From the human T2T-CHM13v2.0 reference genome, Homo sapiens: 64,000 nucleotides of DNA. The stretch lies in the NCBI RefSeq assembly GCF_009914755.1, contig NC_060929.1. The stretch is one strand, 5' to 3'. The notes below the pieces were generated by a model, which worked only from the letters and a program-made list of their open reading frames with translations, was not told the origin of the DNA and searched no databases. A program made the position numbers and the translations under genes. Below, in pieces: positions 1-24,040 of the stretch; position 1 is the stretch's first letter, and the number at the start of each line of letters is the position of its first letter.

Positions 1-2874
1 CCAGGAGCAGATGGAATCTGTACACATAGGTATTAGTGGGTGAGTAAGAAGAGAAGTGGACCAAGACTTGACCATAGGGAGCAACAAATGTAAAGCCTTA
101 AAAGAAAAAGAGAGTATCAGACAGGTCCAGGTGTGATTGGATTTAGTAATAGAAGATAATCTTATTCTAGATCATTTTCAGAGGAAAAAGTAGTAGAAAC
201 TAAATTGTGCTGGGTTAGGAACTAAAAGGAAGACAAGAAAGTAGCAATGGTAAATGTAGATGTGTCTTTTGAGAGTTTGGATAAGACGAGAGAAAAGACG
301 GGATGAAATCCAAAGTTGGGATGGGTTTCATTTGCAGGGTTGGTGAGACTTGAGGATGTATGTGGTCAGGTTCCAAAAACCAGAGATGAGTTTCTTTAGA
401 GGATAGAGTAGAGATAGAGACTAAGAGGCTCAGGGCTGGAGTCAGGCCTGGAGACACTTGGGAGAATTTCCCACAACTGTTTGCCAAGGAACTGCACTTA
501 TGCTGCAAAGACAGTGCATTCAGAATTCCAGTCTTGGCAAAGAACCCAGGTAGCACTTTCCCGTTTCAAGCAGAAAGCGCCTGTATTACTGTGTGTGTGA
601 TTTTAGGAGATAAATAGTAACAAAAACTAGCAGTTGTATAGCACTCTGCATCCTTCAAACTGGGCTCAGAGTTTCATTTGAATCCCATGATTGTCTCGTA
701 GCTGTGTGTGCATAAATTATATATATATATACATACAAACACACATATATAAATATAAGTGTATACATACACACATAGGTCTATATATATTTTATGGTCT
801 CTGAGAAACTCATTAGGAGCCTGAGACACACAGCAAATAGGACTTGCCAAACCTTTCATAATTCATACATGATTTAACCCAAGTCTTCTGACTTTGGAGT
901 CGTAGGGCCATCTCTAACAGACTTTGCCATTGCAATTAACAGACTTTGTCATTCTGATAGATTGGCCTAGAGAGTGGCAAGTATATAGGCACTGTCCCCT
1001 TCACTTTACTTCCTGGTTCCCTAGGACTTTCAGCCTCAGATAGTCTGGGGGCTCCTCCTTTGGATACCCTAGTGTTCCAGGTAGTAAATGGTTTCGCTGA
1101 GTACCATAGAGTCAGTTTTCCTATGATGGCAGCTCCTCCCCTCCCAGCCTCCTATATTCTGGGGCTCTTCCTTTCCACACACAAGAAAAGGTGCCTCCCA
1201 AGCCCTTGTACTTGCAGAACTTTTCGTCATGGCCTCATTTTCAAATTCTGTCATCCTTCTCTGCTACCAGATTTCCAGTTTTTGAACCTCGTATATACAG
1301 AAATCACACATTTCTCCCCATTTCTACTCAAGCCCATGCCACACAAACCTGGTGGGACTCCTGACTCTGTCATGTACCAGCTGGAACTAACTGAGCAAGC
1401 GACTCAGCCTTAGTGAACCTAATGATACCTTGCAGAGTTATTATAAGGATTTCAGGAGATAACTTATTTGAAGGATCCAGCTTAGCACCAGGCTTAATAA
1501 ATCTTAGCTCCTTTCTCCCATCAGAGTGGCCTGGAGCTCTTATCCACATTTCTCAGCAGTTAGCACAGTAATATAATTAGCAACATTAGTATATCTAAAA
1601 GGCAATTACCATTTAATTGCTCTGGCCCCAGCCAGCCTGAAGTTTCTCTCCATTCACTTTTAATTTGGGGTTAGGGGTTTTTAGTCCTACCCTGGCTGGT
1701 CACAAAATCACTGCCTCAGAGAGAATTGAAAATAGCTGTAGGCAGCCATTGATTACACAGTAAGAGATTTGGTAATTCCTTCCATTTTGTCCTATATAAA
1801 AATGCACATATCAGTTTGCTCCCGGCCAGCGAACTAATCAGTTCCAAGCGGCATTTTTCTGAGTCAGTGAAGGATCGTCTTTGGTCAGACCAGCTCTGAT
1901 CTCAAGAAGGCAAGCACTCCCACAGATGCTCCACACTGATCTTCATTAAAATAAATTAGTGCCCTTGTATAGGTTCAGACTCAGAATCAAGTTTCAGCCA
2001 TCCTTTCTTAGAAGACATTTATTTACATTACATACTCAATTTAAAGGAGCAAATGCCCTTCTCTCAGCCTGTGAAGTTTGTTTATGTTAGAGCTACTGTG
2101 AGAATATAATGCCCAAATGAAGGCAGTATGTTTTATTTCTCCTCCTCTGACCCAATGTCGCATAAAGTAACAGCAGTCTCTAATCAAGAGGAACCCAATG
2201 TACTTTGAGATTTCCAATCAAAATCTTTAATATTCGAATGGCACATGTGCATTTGAGGAAACCTAGATTGCCTCAGGCCACACGGAAAGCATTTACATCT
2301 GAACCACTTTACATAGGATTGCAAGTTAAAGCAAATTCTAAATAACTTTTAGCAGTCTGAGATTTGGAAAACAGCCTGGCCCATATAAATTCTCCCTTAA
2401 TTCTTTTTCTGTTAAATCTTATGCCAAAGTAAATGGAAGCTGTAGAGAACCTTTGAACTCAGTTCTCAAAGGACCTCGGTGAAATTGAATTGGCAGAGCC
2501 AATGTTAGGTTTTCAAAGGAAGATTTTTTTTTGTTCCCCCTTGAAGTGTCCACATCACAATCACCTTCCTTGGTGAAGGATGCAGTCTTGCTTTCTGGAC
2601 CTTCTTGGCTCTGGACCATGTATGTGCCTCTGAGAAATGGGCTTTCTGCTGTAAGGAGCTCCTCAATGGGACTCTTCAGGACCCTTGGGGTTGGCATCCA
2701 GGCTTCTTAGCTCCTTTGCTTCACAGTTCAGTCAGCTGCACTTTTCCTTTTCTCTTTCCAAAAGAGCTTTTGAATGCAAGAGCCCTGGGGTTCAACGCCA
2801 CCTCTTCCTGCCACTTAGAGCAAGTGGTTTCACTTTTCCAAGCTTCACTTTCCTTTTCTGTGAACTGGAGATTA

Positions 2875-4173: not shown

Positions 4174-6064
4174 TTACTTCAGGTGGTCATTGTGCCTTTA
4201 CTTACACACTGCCAGTATAGGGGCTAACTACTGCTGAAAACAGCCTTTTTCCATTTCAAGCAAGTCATCTTGAGCTGGTGTACAGAATGCTTGGAGGTCT
4301 TTATGAGGTACAGAGGTGTAAACAACCATATTTATTACTGTCTCTGAAAGAGAAGGGAGAAGACAAATTGCCATTCAAAAACCTGCATGATTTGTATATT
4401 ATAAACTCAAAGAAACTCTTCTCAGTGTGTTATATGTTGGGTGTACCAATTATAAATCATCAGAGGGAGACTGAGAAAAGTCAACAGAAATCTGCAATCT
4501 GACGTGTGTGGAAAGGCAGTGACTGAGAACTGGTGGTTTTGGAATCAGTCCTACCTGGCTTTGATTCCTGTCATCATTATTAGCTTTGAGCAATCTGCTT
4601 TACTCTCTGGACTTCTATTTCCTCATCTGTGAAGTGAGAGTGATATTAAAGATTAAATCAGATTAAAATTGTAAAGAATAACACCAACACAGTGGCTGGC
4701 TCAAGTTGGTGTTAAATAAATAATACGCAGCATTATTATTAGGTTATTTTATTATTAGAACCACAGGGGTTTCTATTTGACTGATAATGGATGTTTCTTA
4801 AAGAAGAAAAATGTGTGAGGACTCTGAGTTGACTATCTTAGTAGCCAATTAGGGGAAAGGGGGTTAATAGAAACTGTCAGCCCCCAGTTGCCACCTCCCC
4901 ACAGTAGGGTTGTGTGGCCCAGCTTTCCCATCTGCTTCCACAGCCATAAACCTCTTATCTAACATGCAGCACTAGGAGTTTTTCATACCCTTCCTGAAAG
5001 GGCTGATCAATACCAAATACTGATCATACCTTTATGTAAATAAAACATCAGCTAATTTCTTATTCTAATCTGTATTTTTTTGGTCAGGCCAATGTTGTGT
5101 TTCTAAAAGAGCTCTCCTCCGAAAAAGCTATGATTTGCAACATTTGCCAGTTTCCATGGTGTAAATACTCCCAGCATGGCCAATTGTAAGCTCTTAACAC
5201 AAAGTCACTGAACACAGAGTTTGGAAGAGATGTGCACAGCTGTTCAAGTTGTTGCCACTCCATTACACCACTGGGCCAGGCTAAAGCTTATGCTTTGATA
5301 GTATAGGACAGGATGATTGACAACAGCAAAACCTACAAGCAAATGCAGTAGAGGGAAAATAGTTTGTCGTAGAGTGGATCACTATAATATACTTGGATTC
5401 ATCCAGAAAGTGAGTTCATGCCAGATTACTCGAGCAATGTATCTCAATGCCATCTTTCTCTTCTTGTTCTGTACTCTCCAGTCATACTTAGAAGAGAAAT
5501 ATTTCCCTAGCCTCTTGTGCTGTAGGAAGGAAAGTCTCCCTAATCACTTCTCAATTGTTTGAATGTTTCCTTCACCAATAGTTTAGATATTTGCTCGTGG
5601 ACATAATCCCCATGTTTATAAAGATGTCTTCTTTTTCTCCCTCCTCTTTCCCTTCCCCCTCTCCCTCCCTTCTTCCTTCCTTCTTTATAACCATCCTTAC
5701 TTCCTTCAGAAGTATTTTCCACCATCTTTTGTATTTCTAACGTCCCTACAAGATCATCAGAACAGGCAATAGTACTTCTGCTTTGCAAAATTGTAGAGAA
5801 ACTAGAAAACCATTCTACTTGTATAAATCTCTGTCATGTTATTGCTCTCATTTTTAATTTGTCATTTTGTTATTTTGAAATCTTCATTGTTATTGAGACA
5901 TCCCGTACTTTAACTTTCTTCCATGAGTGGAGTGGTGTACTTTCAACCTCTGGCTTTTCTTTTGTGTCATAAATTTAATTTTATTCTCTCCATCACAGTT
6001 TTTGAAAACTGTATTATACTGTATATAGGAAATTGTATTACAGTACTGTAAATACATTTCTGAG

Positions 6065-6360: not shown

Positions 6361-7330
6361 ATGAAGCCCTCTGCAGACGTGCTTGAGATCATCACTTGTA
6401 CCATCCTAATCTTCATGAGCATCGTGGGAAACACGTTTGTTTTATTCTACAAGAAGATGTATCACTGGGCATTTACAGACATCCTTTCTTCTAATTTTCA
6501 ATCTTATTTTTGTCCACCTTATTAAAAACTTGGTGGTGAATGTTATGAAAATTGTTTACTCTTCTGGTATCATATTGGATTCAGCTGGCTGCAAAGTTCT
6601 GTGCTTTACATCAGCCCTGACAACTTCACTGGCCATCTGCTTCATGTTACACTTTGCATTGCTTTACCACTGGAAGCTTTACCAAATTGCCCACCCCTTG
6701 GGTGTAAATCCAAGCCTGGACCAACAGAAGCATTCCTTGAAGGTGGTTTCTGTACTTTGGGTGGCTGGTGTGGTGGTATATATCCCAGTTTAAATTCGTA
6801 CCAGAAAACCAGAATTCTCGAATGCAGGAAATGATACAGATCCCTTGTCTACTAACAGGATGTACATGGATTGCCCAGTTGTCTTTGGAAACAAGCAGGT
6901 AGAGTTTTTCTATGGGAAAATTTTTTTCGTTCTGATTGATATTCTTTCTTTAGCTATTTTAGTCTTTGTCTGTTTCTGGATGTCTTTCCTCCTTTCAGAG
7001 AGAAAGAAGATGACATATGGTGACATCTGGATTGGAGATGATGATTCAGAAATTGAAATCCTTAGAGGGGCCAAGTTCAGTATTTTATTAATGTTGCTGA
7101 TCACTCCACTTTGGATTTCTCACTTTATCTTAGTCTGTTTCTTGAAAGACTTGGCAGCATGCAGCTTTATTCCAGCTGTTCTTACAGCCATCTCTTCAAG
7201 CTTCTCTGCTCTCAGTCCTTTCTTGCTTATGTTGGTTAATTACAAAATGAAGTTGGTGACCTTCTGTGGTGCCAAAGAGGAAAAACCCACACCACAGCCT
7301 ACAAATGTTATTCTTTCTCCATATGCTTAA
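6361..7330 (+). pseudogene. ancV1R: Intronless V1R-family 7-TM receptor pseudogene (ancV1R), nested in SNCAIP intron 1
   Basis: ACC-ATG at 6361 gives MKPSADVLEIITCTILIFMSIVGNT. A frameshift at ~6434-6437 leads into LFYSTRR...GCKVLCF...VVVYIPV. After an in-frame TAA at 6791-6793 the same frame continues IRTRKPEFSNAGNDTD...SALSPFLLML...SPYA* to 7330. The reconstruction is ~322 aa with 7 hydrophobic segments and V1R-like GN (TM1), GCK (TM3 start) and SPF (TM7). The location matches the recalled ancV1R locus. Confidence 0.88.
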
Positions 7331-10605: not shown

Positions 10606-14431
<3,826 letters not shown>

Positions 14432-14494
14432 TATGATGTTAGCTGGTGATTTTGCTCGTTAGTTGATGCAGTTTCTTCCTAGTCTCGATGGTCT

Positions 14495-15512: not shown

Positions 15513-16412
15513 CTTTGTGGTTTTATCTACTTTTGGTCTTTGATGATGGTGATGTACAGATGGGTTTTTGGTGTGGATGTCCTTTCTGTTCGTTAGTTTT
15601 CCTTCTAACAGACAGGACCCTCAGCTGCAGGTCTGTTGGAATACCCTGCCGTGTGAGGTGTCAGTGTGCCCCTGCTGGGGTTGCCTCCCAGTTAGCCTGC
15701 TCGGGGGTCAGGGGTCAGGGACCCACTTGAGGAGGCAGTCTGCCCGTTCTCAGATCTCCAGCTGCGTGCTGGGAGAACCACTGCTCTCTTCAAAGCTGTC
15801 AGACAGGGACATTTAAGTCTGCAGAGGTTACTGCTGTCTTTTTGTCTGTCTGTGCCCTGCCCCCAGAGGTGGAGTCTACAGAGGCAGGCAGGCCTCCTTG
15901 AGCTGTGGTGGGCTCCACCCAGTTGGAGCTTCCCGGCTGCTTTGTTTACCTAGCAAGCCTGGGCAATGGCAGGCGCCCCTCCCCCAGCCTCGCTGCAGCC
16001 TTGCAGTTTGATCTCAGACTGCTGTGCTAGCAATCAGCGAGACTCCGTGGGCGTAGGACCCTCCGAGCCAGGTGCGGGATATAATCTCGTGATGCGCCGT
16101 TTTTTAAGCTGGTCCAAAAAGCTCAATATTCGGGTGGGAGTGACCCGATTTTCCAGGTGCGTCCGTCACCCCTTTCTTTGACTCGGAAAGGGAACTCCCT
16201 GACCCCTTGCGCTTCCCAAGTGAGGCAATGCCTCACCCTGCTTCGGCTTGCGCACGGTGCGCGCACCCACTGACCTGCGCCCACTGTCTGGCACTCCCTA
16301 GTGAGATGAACCCGGTACCTCAGATGGAAATGCAGAAATCACCCGTCTTCTGTGTCGCTCACGCTGGGAGCTGTAGACCGGAGCTGTTCCTATTCGGCCA
16401 TCTTGGCTCCTC
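15513..16412. promoter_or_regulatory. L1 5'UTR: sense and antisense promoter region, CpG-rich, YY1 site intact
   Basis: CAAGATGGCCG on the - strand at 16395-16405; many CpGs retained at 16030-16400. Confidence 0.75.
15966..16181 (+). CDS. L1 ORF0 (71 aa, antisense ORF in the L1 5'UTR), intact
   Basis: MAGAPPPASLQPCSLISDCC...RCVRHPFL matches the primate L1 ORF0 pattern. Internal donors CAG|GTGCGG (16071/16072) and CAG|GTGCGT (16156/16157). Confidence 0.8.
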   Translation: MAGAPPPASLQPCSLISDCCASNQRDSVGVGPSEPGAGYNLVMRRFLSWSKKLNIRVGVTRFSRCVRHPFL

Positions 16413-18519
16413 GAGAGATCAGATTTAAAGGTACATAAAATATGTATATCTGCCCTAGACTTAAAAACTAGTCTCTCCAAGCTCTCAAGTTCAGGTATAT
16501 GTTAGTTTGTTCTCAATATTTGGGTTTCAGATACCATGAAATGACCTCCAAATCACTTGCAAGAATTTTAATGTATAAATTAAAGGGCAAAACTACAAAA
16601 AGACCAATCCTTACAGGAATTTTTCAGAGAAATCCTGATCTCCAGAATCAAGTTTTCTAAAACAGTGCCATCTTCCTTGCCTTTTTAATAAGACATTAAA
16701 AGGATGGTCATAATCCAATTTTCTTTAAAGGTGAAGTTGAAGACTTAAACCAACTGGCTATGGAATATGTTGTCTTATAGACTAGTTCAGGGATACCTGT
16801 GGGTAAGGTGTGTTAGAGACACAAAGTCTATACACGTTTTGTTAATGATGATGATGGTGATGATGTCTACCATTTCTGTTTAATCTCTCCAGGAAAGAAG
16901 GGTAATTCATTTGGAGTTAGGTTCATGAACATCCAAACAATACAATTCAGGGCTAGGGATGTCTGGAATTCTGACCTAGATGGTTCAAAGACACACCCAT
17001 GATTCAGAGCAGTCCAGGGCAAGTCAGAAGAGCACTAGACTGGTTAGCAGGAAATGATTTGTGTTAGCTGGCTTTGCCCCTACTTAGTAGTGCATAACCT
17101 TGGATGGAATATTCCTGAGGTTTGCCATCTGTAAAATATGAAAGATATGATTGCAAATTACAAATTATGGTGCATACCTTCTGCCTCCATCACAGGTTGC
17201 AGTAAATAATTTGAGCTAAAAAATGTGAAGATGATTCTTAAAAAAAAAATGACACAGAGGCAGTGTTGCTTTACCTTGTCATTTTGGCAAGTTGAAGTAG
17301 GAGAGAAAAATACTAGACTTAAAATCAGAAGCCCTGGTTGCGTGAATTTGAGGCAATTACAGAACCTCTCTGAGCCTTGGTTTCCTTATCTCCACAAAAG
17401 AAATTATAATGACATTTGTCTCCCAGCATCTGTGTGAGACTAAGTGAGCAAGTATATGTAATAGCACCCAGTCCTAAATCTTGATACAAAGTTTTCTTCA
17501 CAAATTTTTCTGTGGGTGTTTCCTTCAGGACAGCAAGGAAGAAATGCAGGCTCTCCTCTAGGAGCTGGAGCAGGCTCAATATATTACACTGAAGTCCCTT
17601 GTTTGATATCAAACATTCACTTGTATTCTTACAAACATGCCAGAAATTTGATATTCCAAGATGTGCTCTGTGTTCACTCTGGCTTTGAAAATACTCCCCT
17701 GACAATCCCTGTTTATCACCCCACCCTCACCATCACGCTTCAAGACCGCTTTGTAGAAGCAAAAATACAGCAATCAATGCTAAATCAATGTTATGCGTCT
17801 TTCTGGACATTCTGTTCCAGAATTCTCACTTCCAGGCCTGTTCCCATACTGAAAGCACAGACAACTGGAACACTTCCTCCTGTCCCAACCACTCCCTTCC
17901 CATTCACACCTCCATCCTTCGGCTTTCAGCTTTGCCAGGCTGACTTCTGTTATCTCCAAGGTCTAGATTGGGTGCCTCAGCCTGCTGTGTATTTATTTGT
18001 CCTGGCGAGCATCACATGATATTGTAATAGCATGCCTTCTTGTTTGTCTCCCCTGGTACCATATACTCCATCTTGGTGTGGAAACTAGTGTAGGTCTTAT
18101 CCACCACATGCATCCAGAATATTCCATAAATGAAGAAGTGGATAAAGTCCACAGGGCTTGTGCTTTTTCTTTGTTCATGTGTACTTCTTGGCTCTCCTTC
18201 AGTTGCCTCTTTCTAGTAAAAATTTCTTGCCTCTATCATTTTTCTGCTTCAAGATGAGGCATTTACTGACTGCCATGCTTCTGGCCACTGTTGAATCAAA
18301 GAGTGAAAGAAACCAAATCCAACATTTGGAATGAGTTGCTTCCTTGCCAGCCAAGCTACTGAGCCAACTGGGGACAACATTTCTACCCAGACCTTCCAGT
18401 ACTTATTTTGTGATCATTTTAAGTTTTTATATTGAAGAAAGTAAGCCCAATATCGATGTTCAGGCTTTCAAATTGAAAATTTTTCCCAGTACAAATTTGG
18501 CAGGCATGCGTGTGCGCAC

Positions 18520-23300: not shown

Positions 23301-23966
23301 CTATGGCACAGTCAGGCAAAGCTGTTTGAGGCAGAGGGCAGTGCAATAACTCTGAGGTTTAAATCTGCACTTAGATCCTCTTTCTTTCTTCCTTTTTGAG
23401 GGGTGAACTGGAGGTTGTGCTACAAATTCTAAAATATCCATTACTCTTGGTTAGTGGTATCTGTCTTGTGTTATTCCTGTGGAGATGCAGTATTCATTGC
23501 TCCATGTACAACACCCAAGGATATGCCCACAGGAAACATTTGAAAATGGCTTTCCTAAGATTTCCAGGCTGGCTCCCCATTTCCCAAAGCCCTGCCTTTT
23601 ACCCTGGCTGTGGTAAGAGTTGGTGTGAATTCTAATATTGATTCTAGGGGGAGATTCTGACCCAAGTTACTGCTCTGGCAAAGACAAACAGGCACATATC
23701 AAATAAAGCAAAGGACTTTGAGTGCCCACTGGGGAGCCACACTGGGGACCATGGAGACGCTGTGTTTGCTGCTTCTGGAAAGCCAGGCTGTGGACAGTTG
23801 AAGGAAGGAAATGTGCTCCAAGGCAACACTAGCACCCAATAACCCTTCTCATCTTATTTGTTTAAATGTAGACATTATTTTTGGTTGTAAAACGGCTAAA
23901 TTTTTTTGCCTTTCTTTTCTGCTTCTGTCTCGTTCAGGAATTTATAAGTATTTGACCGTACTCAAA

Positions 23967-23984
23967 ATGTGCAAGGAAGAATAA
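23967..23984 (+). promoter_or_regulatory. uORF MCKEE* whose stop overlaps the SNCAIP start (TAATG)
   Basis: AAA ATG TGC AAG GAA GAA TAA; TAA 23982-23984 shares its last A with the ATG at 23984. Confidence 0.7.
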
Positions 23985-24040
23985 TGGAAGCCCCTGAATA
24001 CCTTGATTTGGATGAAATTGACTTTAGTGATGACATATCT
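23984..24040 (+). CDS. SNCAIP: Synphilin-1 first coding exon (exon 23938-24040), MEAPEYLDLDEIDFSDDIS
   Basis: Polypyrimidine tract plus CAG ends at 23937; ATG at 23984; GTAAGT donor at 24041. Translation matches the synphilin-1 N-terminus. Confidence 0.96.

What the first reader, a model, noticed from the sequence alone, without database searches (positions are those of the whole stretch)
6361..7330. Hidden chemoreceptor gene in SNCAIP intron 1: ancV1R pseudogene with only two lesions
Seen: three pieces join into one ~322-aa intronless 7-TM protein. The pieces are the ATG at 6361, ORF 6437-6793 and the same-frame continuation to 7330. It has GN in TM1, GCK at the start of TM3, an NDT sequon plus Cys in ECL2, and SPF in TM7. 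Only a frameshift at ~6435 (which ends the native frame at TAA 6523-6525, 54 aa) and TAA at 6791 break it. Recalled knowledge: ancV1R is a single V1R orthologue conserved across bony vertebrates, located in this intron, broadly expressed in vomeronasal neurons and lost in lineages lacking a functional VNO. Inference: this is a molecular fossil of vomeronasal loss that could be repaired with two edits. It is described in the literature but easily missed by annotation.
Basis: partly seen in the sequence, partly recalled or inferred. Interest (0 to 1): 0.85.

Follow-up and report, generated by a model that had tools for sequence, protein, structure and literature searches.

The report
Human ancV1R pheromone-receptor pseudogene (ANCV1RP)
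This is the dead human copy of an ancient vomeronasal (pheromone-organ) receptor gene lying inside the SNCAIP gene; it is real, but already published and already annotated, so it is an ordinary finding.

Summary
Window 6361-7330 (+) reads as one intronless 322-residue seven-helix receptor. It is broken by a frameshift between 6434 and 6435, which makes the native frame stop at TAA 6523-6525 after 54 aa, and by an in-frame TAA at 6791-6793.

The read-through finds 70 proteins at E <= 1e-3. Most are intact 323-aa mammalian orthologues (marmoset 91% identity, E 8e-179), and the tarsier one is named "ancient vomeronasal 1 receptor". It is the only copy found in this genome.

The published alignment of Zhang & Nikaido 2020 carries the same human sequence. 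It shows the TAA in all four great apes seen and in none of the other catarrhines seen. It shows the 2-bp deletion in human only.

Two claims are overstated:
- "Repaired with two edits": human also differs at positions invariant in 52 of 52 orthologues (W93C, P196S, L277I) and at L189F (51 of 52).
- "Missed by annotation": RefSeq lists ANCV1RP at these very coordinates. However, Pfam's V1R model does miss the locus.

Already known; low interest.

The parts
6361..7330 (+). ANCV1RP, the whole human ancV1R pseudogene from the ancestral ATG to the ancestral stop (970 bp; intact mammalian genes are mostly 972 bp)
   Evidence: 70 homologues; 972 bp stated in PMC7290294; same span in RefSeq (hub table)
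6361..6432 (+). codons 1-24 in the ancestral frame (N-terminus and most of helix 1, ending in the invariant Gly23-Asn24)
   Evidence: M1, G23 and N24 invariant in 52 of 52 orthologues
6433..6436 (+). site of the 2-bp deletion (between 6434 and 6435). Two ancestral codons (ACA TGT in other catarrhines) are reduced to four bases, shifting the frame by +1
   Evidence: human gap in the published alignment; intact in the 12 other catarrhines seen, and in marmoset and owl monkey (read by eye); one-residue gap in the protein alignment
6523..6525 (+). TAA that ends the frame opened by ATG 6361 after 54 codons, as a result of the frameshift
6437..6790 (+). codons 26-143 of the read-through (helices 2-4), open in the +1 frame
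6791..6793 (+). nonsense codon TAA at residue 144, at the end of helix 4. The ancestral codon was TTA (Leu; Leu in 49 of 52 orthologues), changed at 6792
   Evidence: TAA in human, chimpanzee, orangutan and gorilla, TTA in gibbon and the Old World monkeys seen; 'Hominidae shares one nonsense mutation'
6794..7327 (+). codons 145-322 (extracellular loop 2 with the NDT sequon and Cys171, then helices 5-7 and the tail)
7328..7330 (+). ancestral stop codon TAA
   Evidence: orthologues end at the same ...SPYA
6638..6640 (+). TGC, Cys93 in helix 3, where 52 of 52 orthologues have Trp. TGC in human, chimpanzee and gorilla; TGG in orangutan, gibbon and Old World monkeys
   Evidence: lineage read by eye
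6926..6928 (+). TTC, Phe189 in helix 5, where 51 of 52 orthologues have Leu. Human only among the apes seen
   Evidence: by eye
6947..6949 (+). TCT, Ser196 in helix 5, where 52 of 52 orthologues have Pro. The column also holds Pro in 90% or more of the wider 87-row receptor alignment. TCT in human, chimpanzee and gorilla only
   Evidence: by eye
7190..7192 (+). ATC, Ile277 in helix 7, where 52 of 52 orthologues have Leu. Shared by human and chimpanzee only
   Evidence: by eye

Best explanation
Window 6361-7330 (+) is ANCV1RP. It is the unitary (single-copy, non-processed, syntenic) human pseudogene of ancV1R. ancV1R is an intronless gene for a rhodopsin-like seven-helix receptor that sits inside SNCAIP in bony vertebrates. 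According to the literature it is expressed in all vomeronasal sensory neurons alongside the canonical V1Rs and V2Rs.

In humans it cannot make a receptor. Translation from the ancestral ATG leaves the frame after codon 24 and stops after 54 residues, with only helix 1 in the ancestral sequence. Even in the ancestral frame, a TAA at codon 144 would cut the protein after helix 4.

The decay was stepwise (inferred from the published alignment, read by eye):
1. TTA to TAA on the great-ape stem, after the gibbon split.
2. W93C and P196S on the African-ape stem.
3. L277I on the human-chimpanzee stem.
4. The 2-bp deletion plus M71I, E115V and L189F on the human lineage alone.

Shown here: the lesions, orthology, single-copy status, the receptor fold and which species share each lesion. 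Taken from papers: expression pattern, the link with loss of the vomeronasal organ, and relaxed selection in catarrhines (omega 1.08 against 0.44).
For: Anatomy and lesions.

Orthology: 70 proteins at E <= 1e-3 among 1429 candidates. The best are marmoset (91%, E 8.2e-179), lemurs (82-84%) and a tarsier protein named 'ancient vomeronasal 1 receptor'. Most are 323 aa, and hits reach down to platypus, a caecilian, a gecko and a snake.

Collinearity: the alignment with 52 of those 70 runs from Met1 to the last residue, with one single-residue gap at the frameshift.

Gene tree: 43 rows. The ancV1R clade has SH-aLRT 100 and human is sister to marmoset at 99.

Single copy: the whole genome gave 2 matches at E <= 1e-3 out of 10 scored candidates, and both are this locus.

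Fold: the AlphaFold model with 87 aligned rows has mean pLDDT 73.5, pTM 0.73 and seven helices. Foldseek found at least 500 PDB matches at E <= 1e-3. The 49 rows listed (ranks 1-50) are all rhodopsin-like receptors, with TM-score 0.52-0.69 on the query.

Literature (PMC7290294):
- All ancV1R genes lie in SNCAIP's first intron, and intact genes are mostly 972 bp.
- Hominidae share one nonsense mutation, and catarrhine omega is 1.08 against a background of 0.44.
- Its supplementary alignment shows the human row and the lineage pattern.
- Its species table lists Homo sapiens as 'pseudogene'.

Annotation: the hub's RefSeq table lists ANCV1RP at 6361..7330 +.
Against: No family model recognises the human read-through. 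Pfam gives no receptor family at E <= 10, and PDB sequences give 0 hits at E <= 10.

Among the 53 aligned sequences, only 2 match Pfam V1R at E <= 1. By contrast 26 match 7tm_1 and 10 match TAS2R. The 'V1R' in the name therefore rests on published trees, not on anything strong here. My own tree joins the clade with 7 of 8 V1R-positive remote hits at only SH-aLRT 89, and it held no taste receptors.

The first structure model, from the 53-row alignment, was poor (pLDDT 46.5).

A crude count gives 10 amino-acid changes on the lineage to human against 9 on the lineage to marmoset. Six were unassigned, over 309 columns. It shows no clear speed-up at the protein level.

Expression, selection values and the 2018 founding paper were not checked at source. 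That paper is not held.
Confidence: 0.97

Rival explanations
1. The whole ancV1R clade, this pseudogene included, is not really a V1R. It would instead be a separate rhodopsin-like receptor lineage, closer to peptide receptors or to taste type-2 receptors. The locus would still be the same pseudogene, but filed under another family.
For: Pfam V1R fails on the human read-through. It matches 2 of 53 aligned members at E <= 1, against 26 for 7tm_1 and 10 for TAS2R.

The V1R model has 139 matches in this genome and none on chromosome 5.

The nearest solved folds are orexin, neuropeptide Y, neurotensin and similar receptors.

The best non-orthologous profile hits are 7tm_1 proteins. Sources name orthologues 'neuropeptide Y receptor type 1-like', 'rhodopsin-like' and 'taste receptor type 2 member 3-like'.
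Against: In the quick tree the clade groups with 7 of the 8 remote hits that pass Pfam's V1R cut-off. It sits apart from both 7tm_1-only groups (SH-aLRT 89).

Two papers state that ancV1R belongs to the V1R family, and teleost V1R5 and V1R6 are used as its closest outgroup.

The TAS2R model does not hit the locus. Its only chromosome 5 match is at 9.57 Mb.

I saw no V1R structure among the 49 listed matches, so the fold ranking may not be able to favour V1R.
Confidence: 0.08
2. The DNA has kept or gained a non-receptor role, for example as a regulatory or transcribed part of SNCAIP. That role would slow its decay and explain why only two frame-breaking lesions have accumulated.
For: The locus lies on the sense strand inside SNCAIP and upstream of alternative first exons at 15971-16430 (hub table).

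By eye I count 8 base substitutions and one deletion on the human lineage since the orangutan split. About 15 would be expected from a genome-average divergence, a figure that I recall and did not compute.

Amino-acid change is no faster than in marmoset.
Against: 7 of those 8 substitutions change the protein, and four hit columns conserved in 51-52 of 52 orthologues. That is what neutral decay of a coding sequence looks like.

The paper reports omega 1.08 in catarrhines.

Gorilla, gibbon and the Old World monkeys each carry their own further lesions.

The RefSeq functional elements listed in the hub table do not overlap 6361-7330.

The shortfall in substitutions is small and rests on counts made by eye.
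Confidence: 0.04
3. The gene still yields a working product in humans, through frameshifting plus stop read-through or from an internal start.
For: Only that the two frame pieces remain long and collinear.
Against: Two independent recoding events would be needed. Residues invariant in all 52 orthologues are lost. An internal start after the TAA would give at most helices 5-7. The pathway channel TRPC2 is reported inactivated in catarrhines.
Confidence: 0.01

Closest known systems
ancV1R (ancient vomeronasal type-1 receptor) of mammals with a vomeronasal organ, such as the marmoset, lemur and tarsier proteins found
   Same: Same locus inside SNCAIP, intronless, and the same start and stop. Identity to placental orthologues is 73-91%. 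Same seven helices, the same Gly-Asn in helix 1, the same Cys77-Cys171 pair, NDT sequon and Ser-Pro-Phe in helix 7.
   Different: The human copy has a 2-bp deletion, a TAA at codon 144, and replacements at W93, L189, P196 and L277, positions conserved in 51-52 of 52 orthologues.
ancV1R pseudogenes of other catarrhines (chimpanzee, gorilla, orangutan, gibbon, Old World monkeys) in Zhang & Nikaido 2020
   Same: The same gene, dead in every catarrhine listed. The TAA is shared with the other great apes.
   Different: The 2-bp deletion is seen in human only. Gorilla has its own 4-bp insertion. Gibbon and the Old World monkeys have different lesions and keep TTA at codon 144 (read by eye).
Canonical mammalian V1R genes (Pfam PF03402; the VN1R genes and pseudogenes of the human genome)
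   Same: Intronless seven-helix chemoreceptors of about 300-320 aa. They are said in the literature to belong to the same family. V1R-positive remote hits group with the ancV1R clade in my tree (SH-aLRT 89).
   Different: The Pfam V1R model does not recognise this locus, and the read-through finds no human V1R at E <= 1e-3. ancV1R is one gene per genome and is expressed in all vomeronasal neurons, not one receptor per neuron. It lies in a host-gene intron rather than in the places on other chromosomes where the Pfam V1R model hits.
TRPC2 pseudogene of catarrhines
   Same: The other molecular marker of vomeronasal loss, reported inactivated in the same lineages with raised omega.
   Different: An ion channel with many exons, not a receptor. 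I did not examine it here.
Taste type-2 receptors (Pfam PF05296)
   Same: Intronless receptors of similar length. 10 of 53 aligned ancV1R-group sequences match the model weakly (best E 1.5e-8).
   Different: The human read-through gets no match. The genome scan hits chromosome 5 only at 9.57 Mb. None of the 49 listed fold matches (ranks 1-50) is described as a taste receptor.

Membership tests
ancV1R orthology group | Best matches are the single-copy ancV1R proteins of other vertebrates, collinear over the full length | tested here: met
   70 hits at E <= 1e-3, the best at 8.2e-179 and one named 'ancient vomeronasal 1 receptor'. Alignment from Met1 to the last residue with one 1-residue gap.
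ancV1R orthology group | Lies inside SNCAIP (first intron in the literature) | tested here: met
   The hub's RefSeq table puts 6361-7330 inside SNCAIP's span, on the same strand, upstream of the first coding exon (23938-24040). The paper states first-intron synteny in all bony vertebrates. The intron number for the selected transcript cannot be read from the table.
ancV1R orthology group | One copy per genome | tested here: met
   Six-frame search of the whole 3.12-Gb assembly: 2 matches at E <= 1e-3 among 10 scored candidates, both at this locus.
ancV1R orthology group | Gene tree follows the species tree | tested here: met
   Human is sister to marmoset (99). The order then runs lemur, other placentals, marsupial, platypus, reptiles and caecilian. 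The clade has SH-aLRT 100 (quick search, 15 ancV1R rows).
ancV1R orthology group | Expression in all vomeronasal sensory neurons | not testable with these tools
   Stated in PMC7290294 and PMC8822828. It does not apply to a dead human gene.
Pseudogene (unitary) | Frame-breaking lesions relative to intact orthologues, with no intact paralogue | tested here: met
   2-bp deletion and TAA. No other copy found.
V1R family (Pfam PF03402) | Match to the family model above its cut-off (25 bits) | tested here: not met
   No match at E <= 10 for the pieces or the read-through. 2 of 53 aligned members match at E <= 1, best 2.3e-4. None of the model's 139 genome matches lies on chromosome 5; 134 of 248 candidates were scored.
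V1R family (Pfam PF03402) | Phylogenetic placement among V1R/ORA receptors | tested here: inconclusive
   The clade groups with 7 of 8 V1R-positive remote hits at SH-aLRT 89, below the 95 mark, and no taste receptors were in the tree. Published trees place it in V1R, but I could not see those trees.
Rhodopsin-like receptors (Pfam PF00001, 7tm_1) | Seven-helix fold like solved class A receptors | tested here: met
   Model pLDDT 73.5, pTM 0.73, seven helices. The 49 listed Foldseek matches (ranks 1-50) are all class A receptors, with TM-score 0.52-0.69.
Rhodopsin-like receptors (Pfam PF00001, 7tm_1) | Match to the family model above its cut-off | tested here: not met
   The human read-through gets no match. 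26 of 53 aligned members match at E <= 1, best 3.3e-12.
Taste type-2 receptors (Pfam PF05296) | Match to the family model above its cut-off | tested here: not met
   The human read-through gets no match. 10 of 53 members match at E <= 1. The genome scan gives 49 matches, and the only chromosome 5 match is at 9.57 Mb.

The most novel reading that the evidence does not exclude
The stretch is not decaying freely. It would keep a sequence-level role inside SNCAIP, regulatory or transcribed, that slows change and explains why a gene stopped since the great-ape stem is still 91% identical to the marmoset protein. My by-eye count is 8 substitutions since the orangutan split, against about 15 expected from a recalled genome average. 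A smaller variant of this reading: the human-only 2-bp deletion is recent or still polymorphic, so some people or archaic humans carry the one-lesion allele.
Probability: 0.04. Interest if true: 0.4.

Novelty: already known. Interest (0 to 1): 0.1.

Why it matters
The locus is a clean, datable marker of the loss of the vomeronasal sense in our lineage. That story is already in print (Suzuki et al. 2018, as cited; Zhang & Nikaido 2020), and the pseudogene has an official symbol and a RefSeq record.

- The frameshift is confined to human among the 13 catarrhines whose alignment rows I read. The word 'human' occurs in the paper's main text only in a reference title, although the supplementary alignment shows the deletion.
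- Besides the two frame-breaking lesions, four replacements hit positions conserved in 51-52 of 52 orthologues. Restoring the frame would therefore probably not restore a receptor.
- Pfam's V1R, TAS2R and 7tm_1 models all fail on the human read-through, and genome scans with the V1R and TAS2R models miss the locus. Model-based chemoreceptor censuses will skip this gene family unless they use ancV1R queries.

Tried and rejected
- Pfam on the three pieces, the 303-aa read-through and the 322-aa read-through gave only sub-threshold noise: DUF5433 at E 0.03 and TMEM132_C at E 0.09-0.17.
- PDB by sequence gave 0 hits at E <= 10.
- The first structure job, with the 53-row orthologue alignment, gave mean pLDDT 46.5 and I did not use it for fold search. 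The second, with 87 rows including remote receptors, was usable.
- The founding paper (Suzuki et al. 2018) is not held, so its claims are second-hand.
- One paper search failed on a term that was too long, and I rewrote it.
- Chance frames are rejected on the homology E-values.
- A processed or duplicated copy elsewhere is rejected by the genome search.
- A TAS2R identity is rejected.
- I ran no codon-model dN/dS and no scripted lineage count. The orthologous DNA exists for me only as text in a paper's supplement, and I did not type it into a tool. Lineage assignments are therefore read by eye.
- Rows dropped from alignment A1: 18 of the 70 hits. Ten were full-length proteins from an unnamed source. 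The other eight were short, fused or unnamed (P0052, P0053, P0062, P0064, P0066, P0067, P0070, P0072).
- Rows dropped from the Pfam scan of profile hits: 7 of 42, all fragments of 81-135 aa.
- Left out of the tree: those fragments and 37 of the 52 A1 orthologues (13 of them were kept, with the human read-through and P0073-P0077).

Full report
**1. The observation**

- ATG 6361 opens a frame that ends at TAA 6523-6525 after 54 codons.
- The +1 frame is open from 6419 to TAA 6791-6793.
- The same frame then runs from 6794 to TAA 7328-7330.

I read the four bases 6433-6436 as one step and the internal TAA as X. This gives a 322-residue read-through, kept as P0002.

- Gly-Asn at 23-24, in helix 1.
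- Gly-Cys-Lys at 76-78, at the start of helix 3.
- The Asn-Asp-Thr sequon at 157-159 and Cys171, in the loop between helices 4 and 5.
- Ser-Pro-Phe at 285-287, in helix 7.

A hydropathy scan gives peaks that I read as seven hydrophobic segments.

The window has 37 stop-to-stop frames of 110 aa or more. The two pieces here (124 and 178 codons) are adjacent and in one frame. Homology settles that this is not chance.

**2. What it is**

The read-through finds 70 proteins at E <= 1e-3 among 1429 candidates.
- The best are marmoset (91% identity, 312 aa, E 8.2e-179), three lemurs (82-84%) and a tarsier protein that UniRef names 'ancient vomeronasal 1 receptor' (81%).
- Most are 323 aa.
- The series runs through placentals, marsupials (56-65%) and platypus (58%) to a caecilian, a gecko and a snake (47-52%).

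I aligned human with 52 of the 70. The alignment is collinear from Met1 to the last residue. The only departure is a one-residue gap beside X25, where orthologues have two residues, mostly Thr/Val/Ile then Cys.

A six-frame search of the whole 3.12-Gb assembly gave two matches at E <= 1e-3 out of 10 scored candidates. Both are the two frames of this locus. So there is one copy, and no canonical human V1R is close enough to appear.

In a quick maximum-likelihood tree of 43 rows, the 15 ancV1R rows form one clade (SH-aLRT 100). Human is sister to marmoset (99), and the order follows the species tree.

The hub's RefSeq table lists ANCV1RP, 'ancient vomeronasal 1 receptor pseudogene', at exactly 6361..7330 +.

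**3. The literature**

Sixteen held papers use the word ancV1R. From Zhang & Nikaido 2020 (PMC7290294) I read the abstract, the Introduction, two Results and Discussion sections, passages, and parts 2 and 3 of the supplementary file.

The paper states the following:
- All ancV1R genes lie in the first intron of SNCAIP from bichir to mammals, and intact mammalian genes are mostly 972 bp.
- ancV1R is expressed in all vomeronasal sensory neurons together with canonical V1Rs.
- In catarrhines each family has its own lesions: 'Hominidae shares one nonsense mutation'.
- Catarrhine omega is 1.08 against a background of 0.44.
- Homo sapiens (GRCh38.p7) is scored 'pseudogene' in its species table.

A second paper (PMC8822828, passages) repeats the family assignment and the pan-neuronal expression. 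The founding paper of 2018 is not held. The figures are not held either.

**4. Which lineages share each lesion**

I read this by eye from the supplementary alignment.

*The deletion site.* Human has two gap columns. Chimpanzee, orangutan, gorilla and gibbon have the full ACATG there, and the eight Old World monkeys I saw have the same full-length site with small variants. Marmoset and owl monkey have ACTTG. So the 2-bp deletion appears in 1 of the 13 catarrhine rows read, the human one. Bonobo is in the species table but not in the alignment.

*Codon 144.* Human, chimpanzee, orangutan and gorilla have TAA. Gibbon, the eight Old World monkeys and the tenrecs have TTA.

*Replacements.*
- W93C and P196S are shared by human, chimpanzee and gorilla only.
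- L277I is shared by human and chimpanzee only.
- M71I, E115V (two adjacent bases) and L189F are human only.

The word 'human' occurs in the paper's main text only in a reference title. The human-only deletion is therefore in print only as a row of a supplementary alignment, and possibly in Fig. 3C, which I cannot see.

Both assemblies I have sight of, GRCh38.p7 in the paper and T2T-CHM13 in the window, carry both lesions.

**5. How dead is it**

However, human also differs at columns that do not vary among the intact orthologues:

| Change | Orthologues with the conserved residue |
|---|---|
| Trp93 to Cys | 52 of 52 |
| Pro196 to Ser | 52 of 52 |
| Leu277 to Ile | 52 of 52 |
| Leu189 to Phe | 51 of 52 |
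| V110A | 47 of 52 |
| Y183F | 47 of 52 |
| G280S | 49 of 52 |

Pro196 is also present in 90% or more of the wider 87-row alignment that includes remote receptors. From general knowledge, not tested here, that is the place of the conserved helix-5 proline of rhodopsin-like receptors.

Restoring the frame would therefore give an open reading frame, but probably not a working receptor. The pathway channel TRPC2 is also reported dead in catarrhines.

A result that cuts the other way: a crude parsimony count gives 10 amino-acid changes on the lineage to human and 9 on the lineage to marmoset. Six were unassigned, over 309 columns. It shows no clear speed-up at the protein level.

**6. Family placement**

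- It gives no hit at E <= 10 on the pieces or the read-through.
- Among the 53 aligned sequences scanned singly at E <= 1, 26 match 7tm_1, 10 match TAS2R and 2 match V1R.
- In the genome, the V1R model has 139 matches and none on chromosome 5 (134 of 248 candidates scored).
- The TAS2R model has 49 matches, and its only chromosome 5 match is at 9.57 Mb.

A profile of the 53-row alignment searched against 1.84 billion representatives gave 42 hits at E <= 1e-3. I scanned 35 of them with Pfam. Of the 29 remote ones, 28 match 7tm_1 at E <= 1e-3 and 8 pass the V1R cut-off. V1R is the best family for 3 of them.

In the tree, 7 of those 8 join the ancV1R clade at SH-aLRT 89. This group sits apart from two groups of 7tm_1-only proteins.

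The usable model (pLDDT 73.5, pTM 0.73) matches at least 500 PDB chains at E <= 1e-3. The 49 listed (ranks 1-50) are all rhodopsin-like receptors such as orexin, neuropeptide Y and neurotensin receptors.

My reading is that the fold and the orthology are secure. 'V1R' as a family label is consistent with my tree but rests mainly on published phylogenies.

**7. Surroundings**

The flanks show no other coding signal that I could tie to the gene.
- A CT-rich tract lies at about 5637-5690.
- About 3.3 kb downstream, on the minus strand, lie stop-broken pieces of an L1-type ORF2: an endonuclease domain at 13703-14458 and a reverse transcriptase at 11747-13699. They lie inside stretches that NCBI masks as repeats.
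- Other SNCAIP transcripts start at 15971-16430 (hub table). For them the pseudogene lies upstream of the gene rather than in intron 1.

**8. Verdict**

The finding is real, correctly located and correctly named. It is already published and annotated. The 'two edits' and 'missed by annotation' remarks are overstated. Interest is low.

Noticed in passing
window 10609-14458, minus strand: Stop-broken frames of an L1-type retrotransposon ORF2. One is a 252-aa frame with an endonuclease domain (E 1.2e-22) and one a 651-aa frame with reverse transcriptase (E 9.8e-46). They lie inside stretches masked as repeats, about 3.3 kb downstream of the pseudogene.
   Followed up: partly
whole genome (G000): Pfam's V1R model finds 139 places in the human genome, none on chromosome 5. 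The TAS2R model finds 49, and three of them are chromosome 19 places that the V1R model also hits, so the two models cross-react while both miss ANCV1RP.
   Followed up: partly
proteins P0008, P0023, P0038, P0042, P0067, P0068, P0069: Public names of intact ancV1R orthologues are inconsistent. Examples: 'neuropeptide Y receptor type 1-like', 'rhodopsin-like', 'B2 bradykinin receptor-like' and 'taste receptor type 2 member 3-like'. One 345-aa dog entry is named '60S ribosomal protein L10a', carries Pfam PF00687 and covers 62% of the query, which looks like a fused gene model. Most others are 'uncharacterized protein'.
   Followed up: no
proteins P0083, P0086, P0088, P0090: The best non-orthologous hits of the ancV1R profile (E 3.8e-15 to 1e-9) are unnamed 476-550-aa 7tm_1 proteins. 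They match only profile positions about 6-217 (helices 1-5) and seem to have a very long third intracellular loop. They form their own starred clade. I did not establish what they are.
   Followed up: no
supplementary alignment of PMC7290294: By eye, gorilla carries its own 4-bp insertion in the loop after helix 3. The macaque row has TAG where the others have TAT in the 'FFYGK' stretch. The Old World monkeys share a 9-base in-frame insertion, a 1-bp deletion and a 1-bp insertion.
   Followed up: no
window 5637-5690 (+): A CT-rich low-complexity tract about 700 bp upstream of the ATG. GC skew is -0.34 and AT skew -0.29 in the 5500-5999 window.
   Followed up: no
window 17465-18019 (+) and 961-1413 (+): Stop-to-stop frames of 184 and 150 aa with no Pfam match at E <= 1e-3. 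The first lies just downstream of the alternative SNCAIP first exons. I took them to be chance frames.
   Followed up: partly
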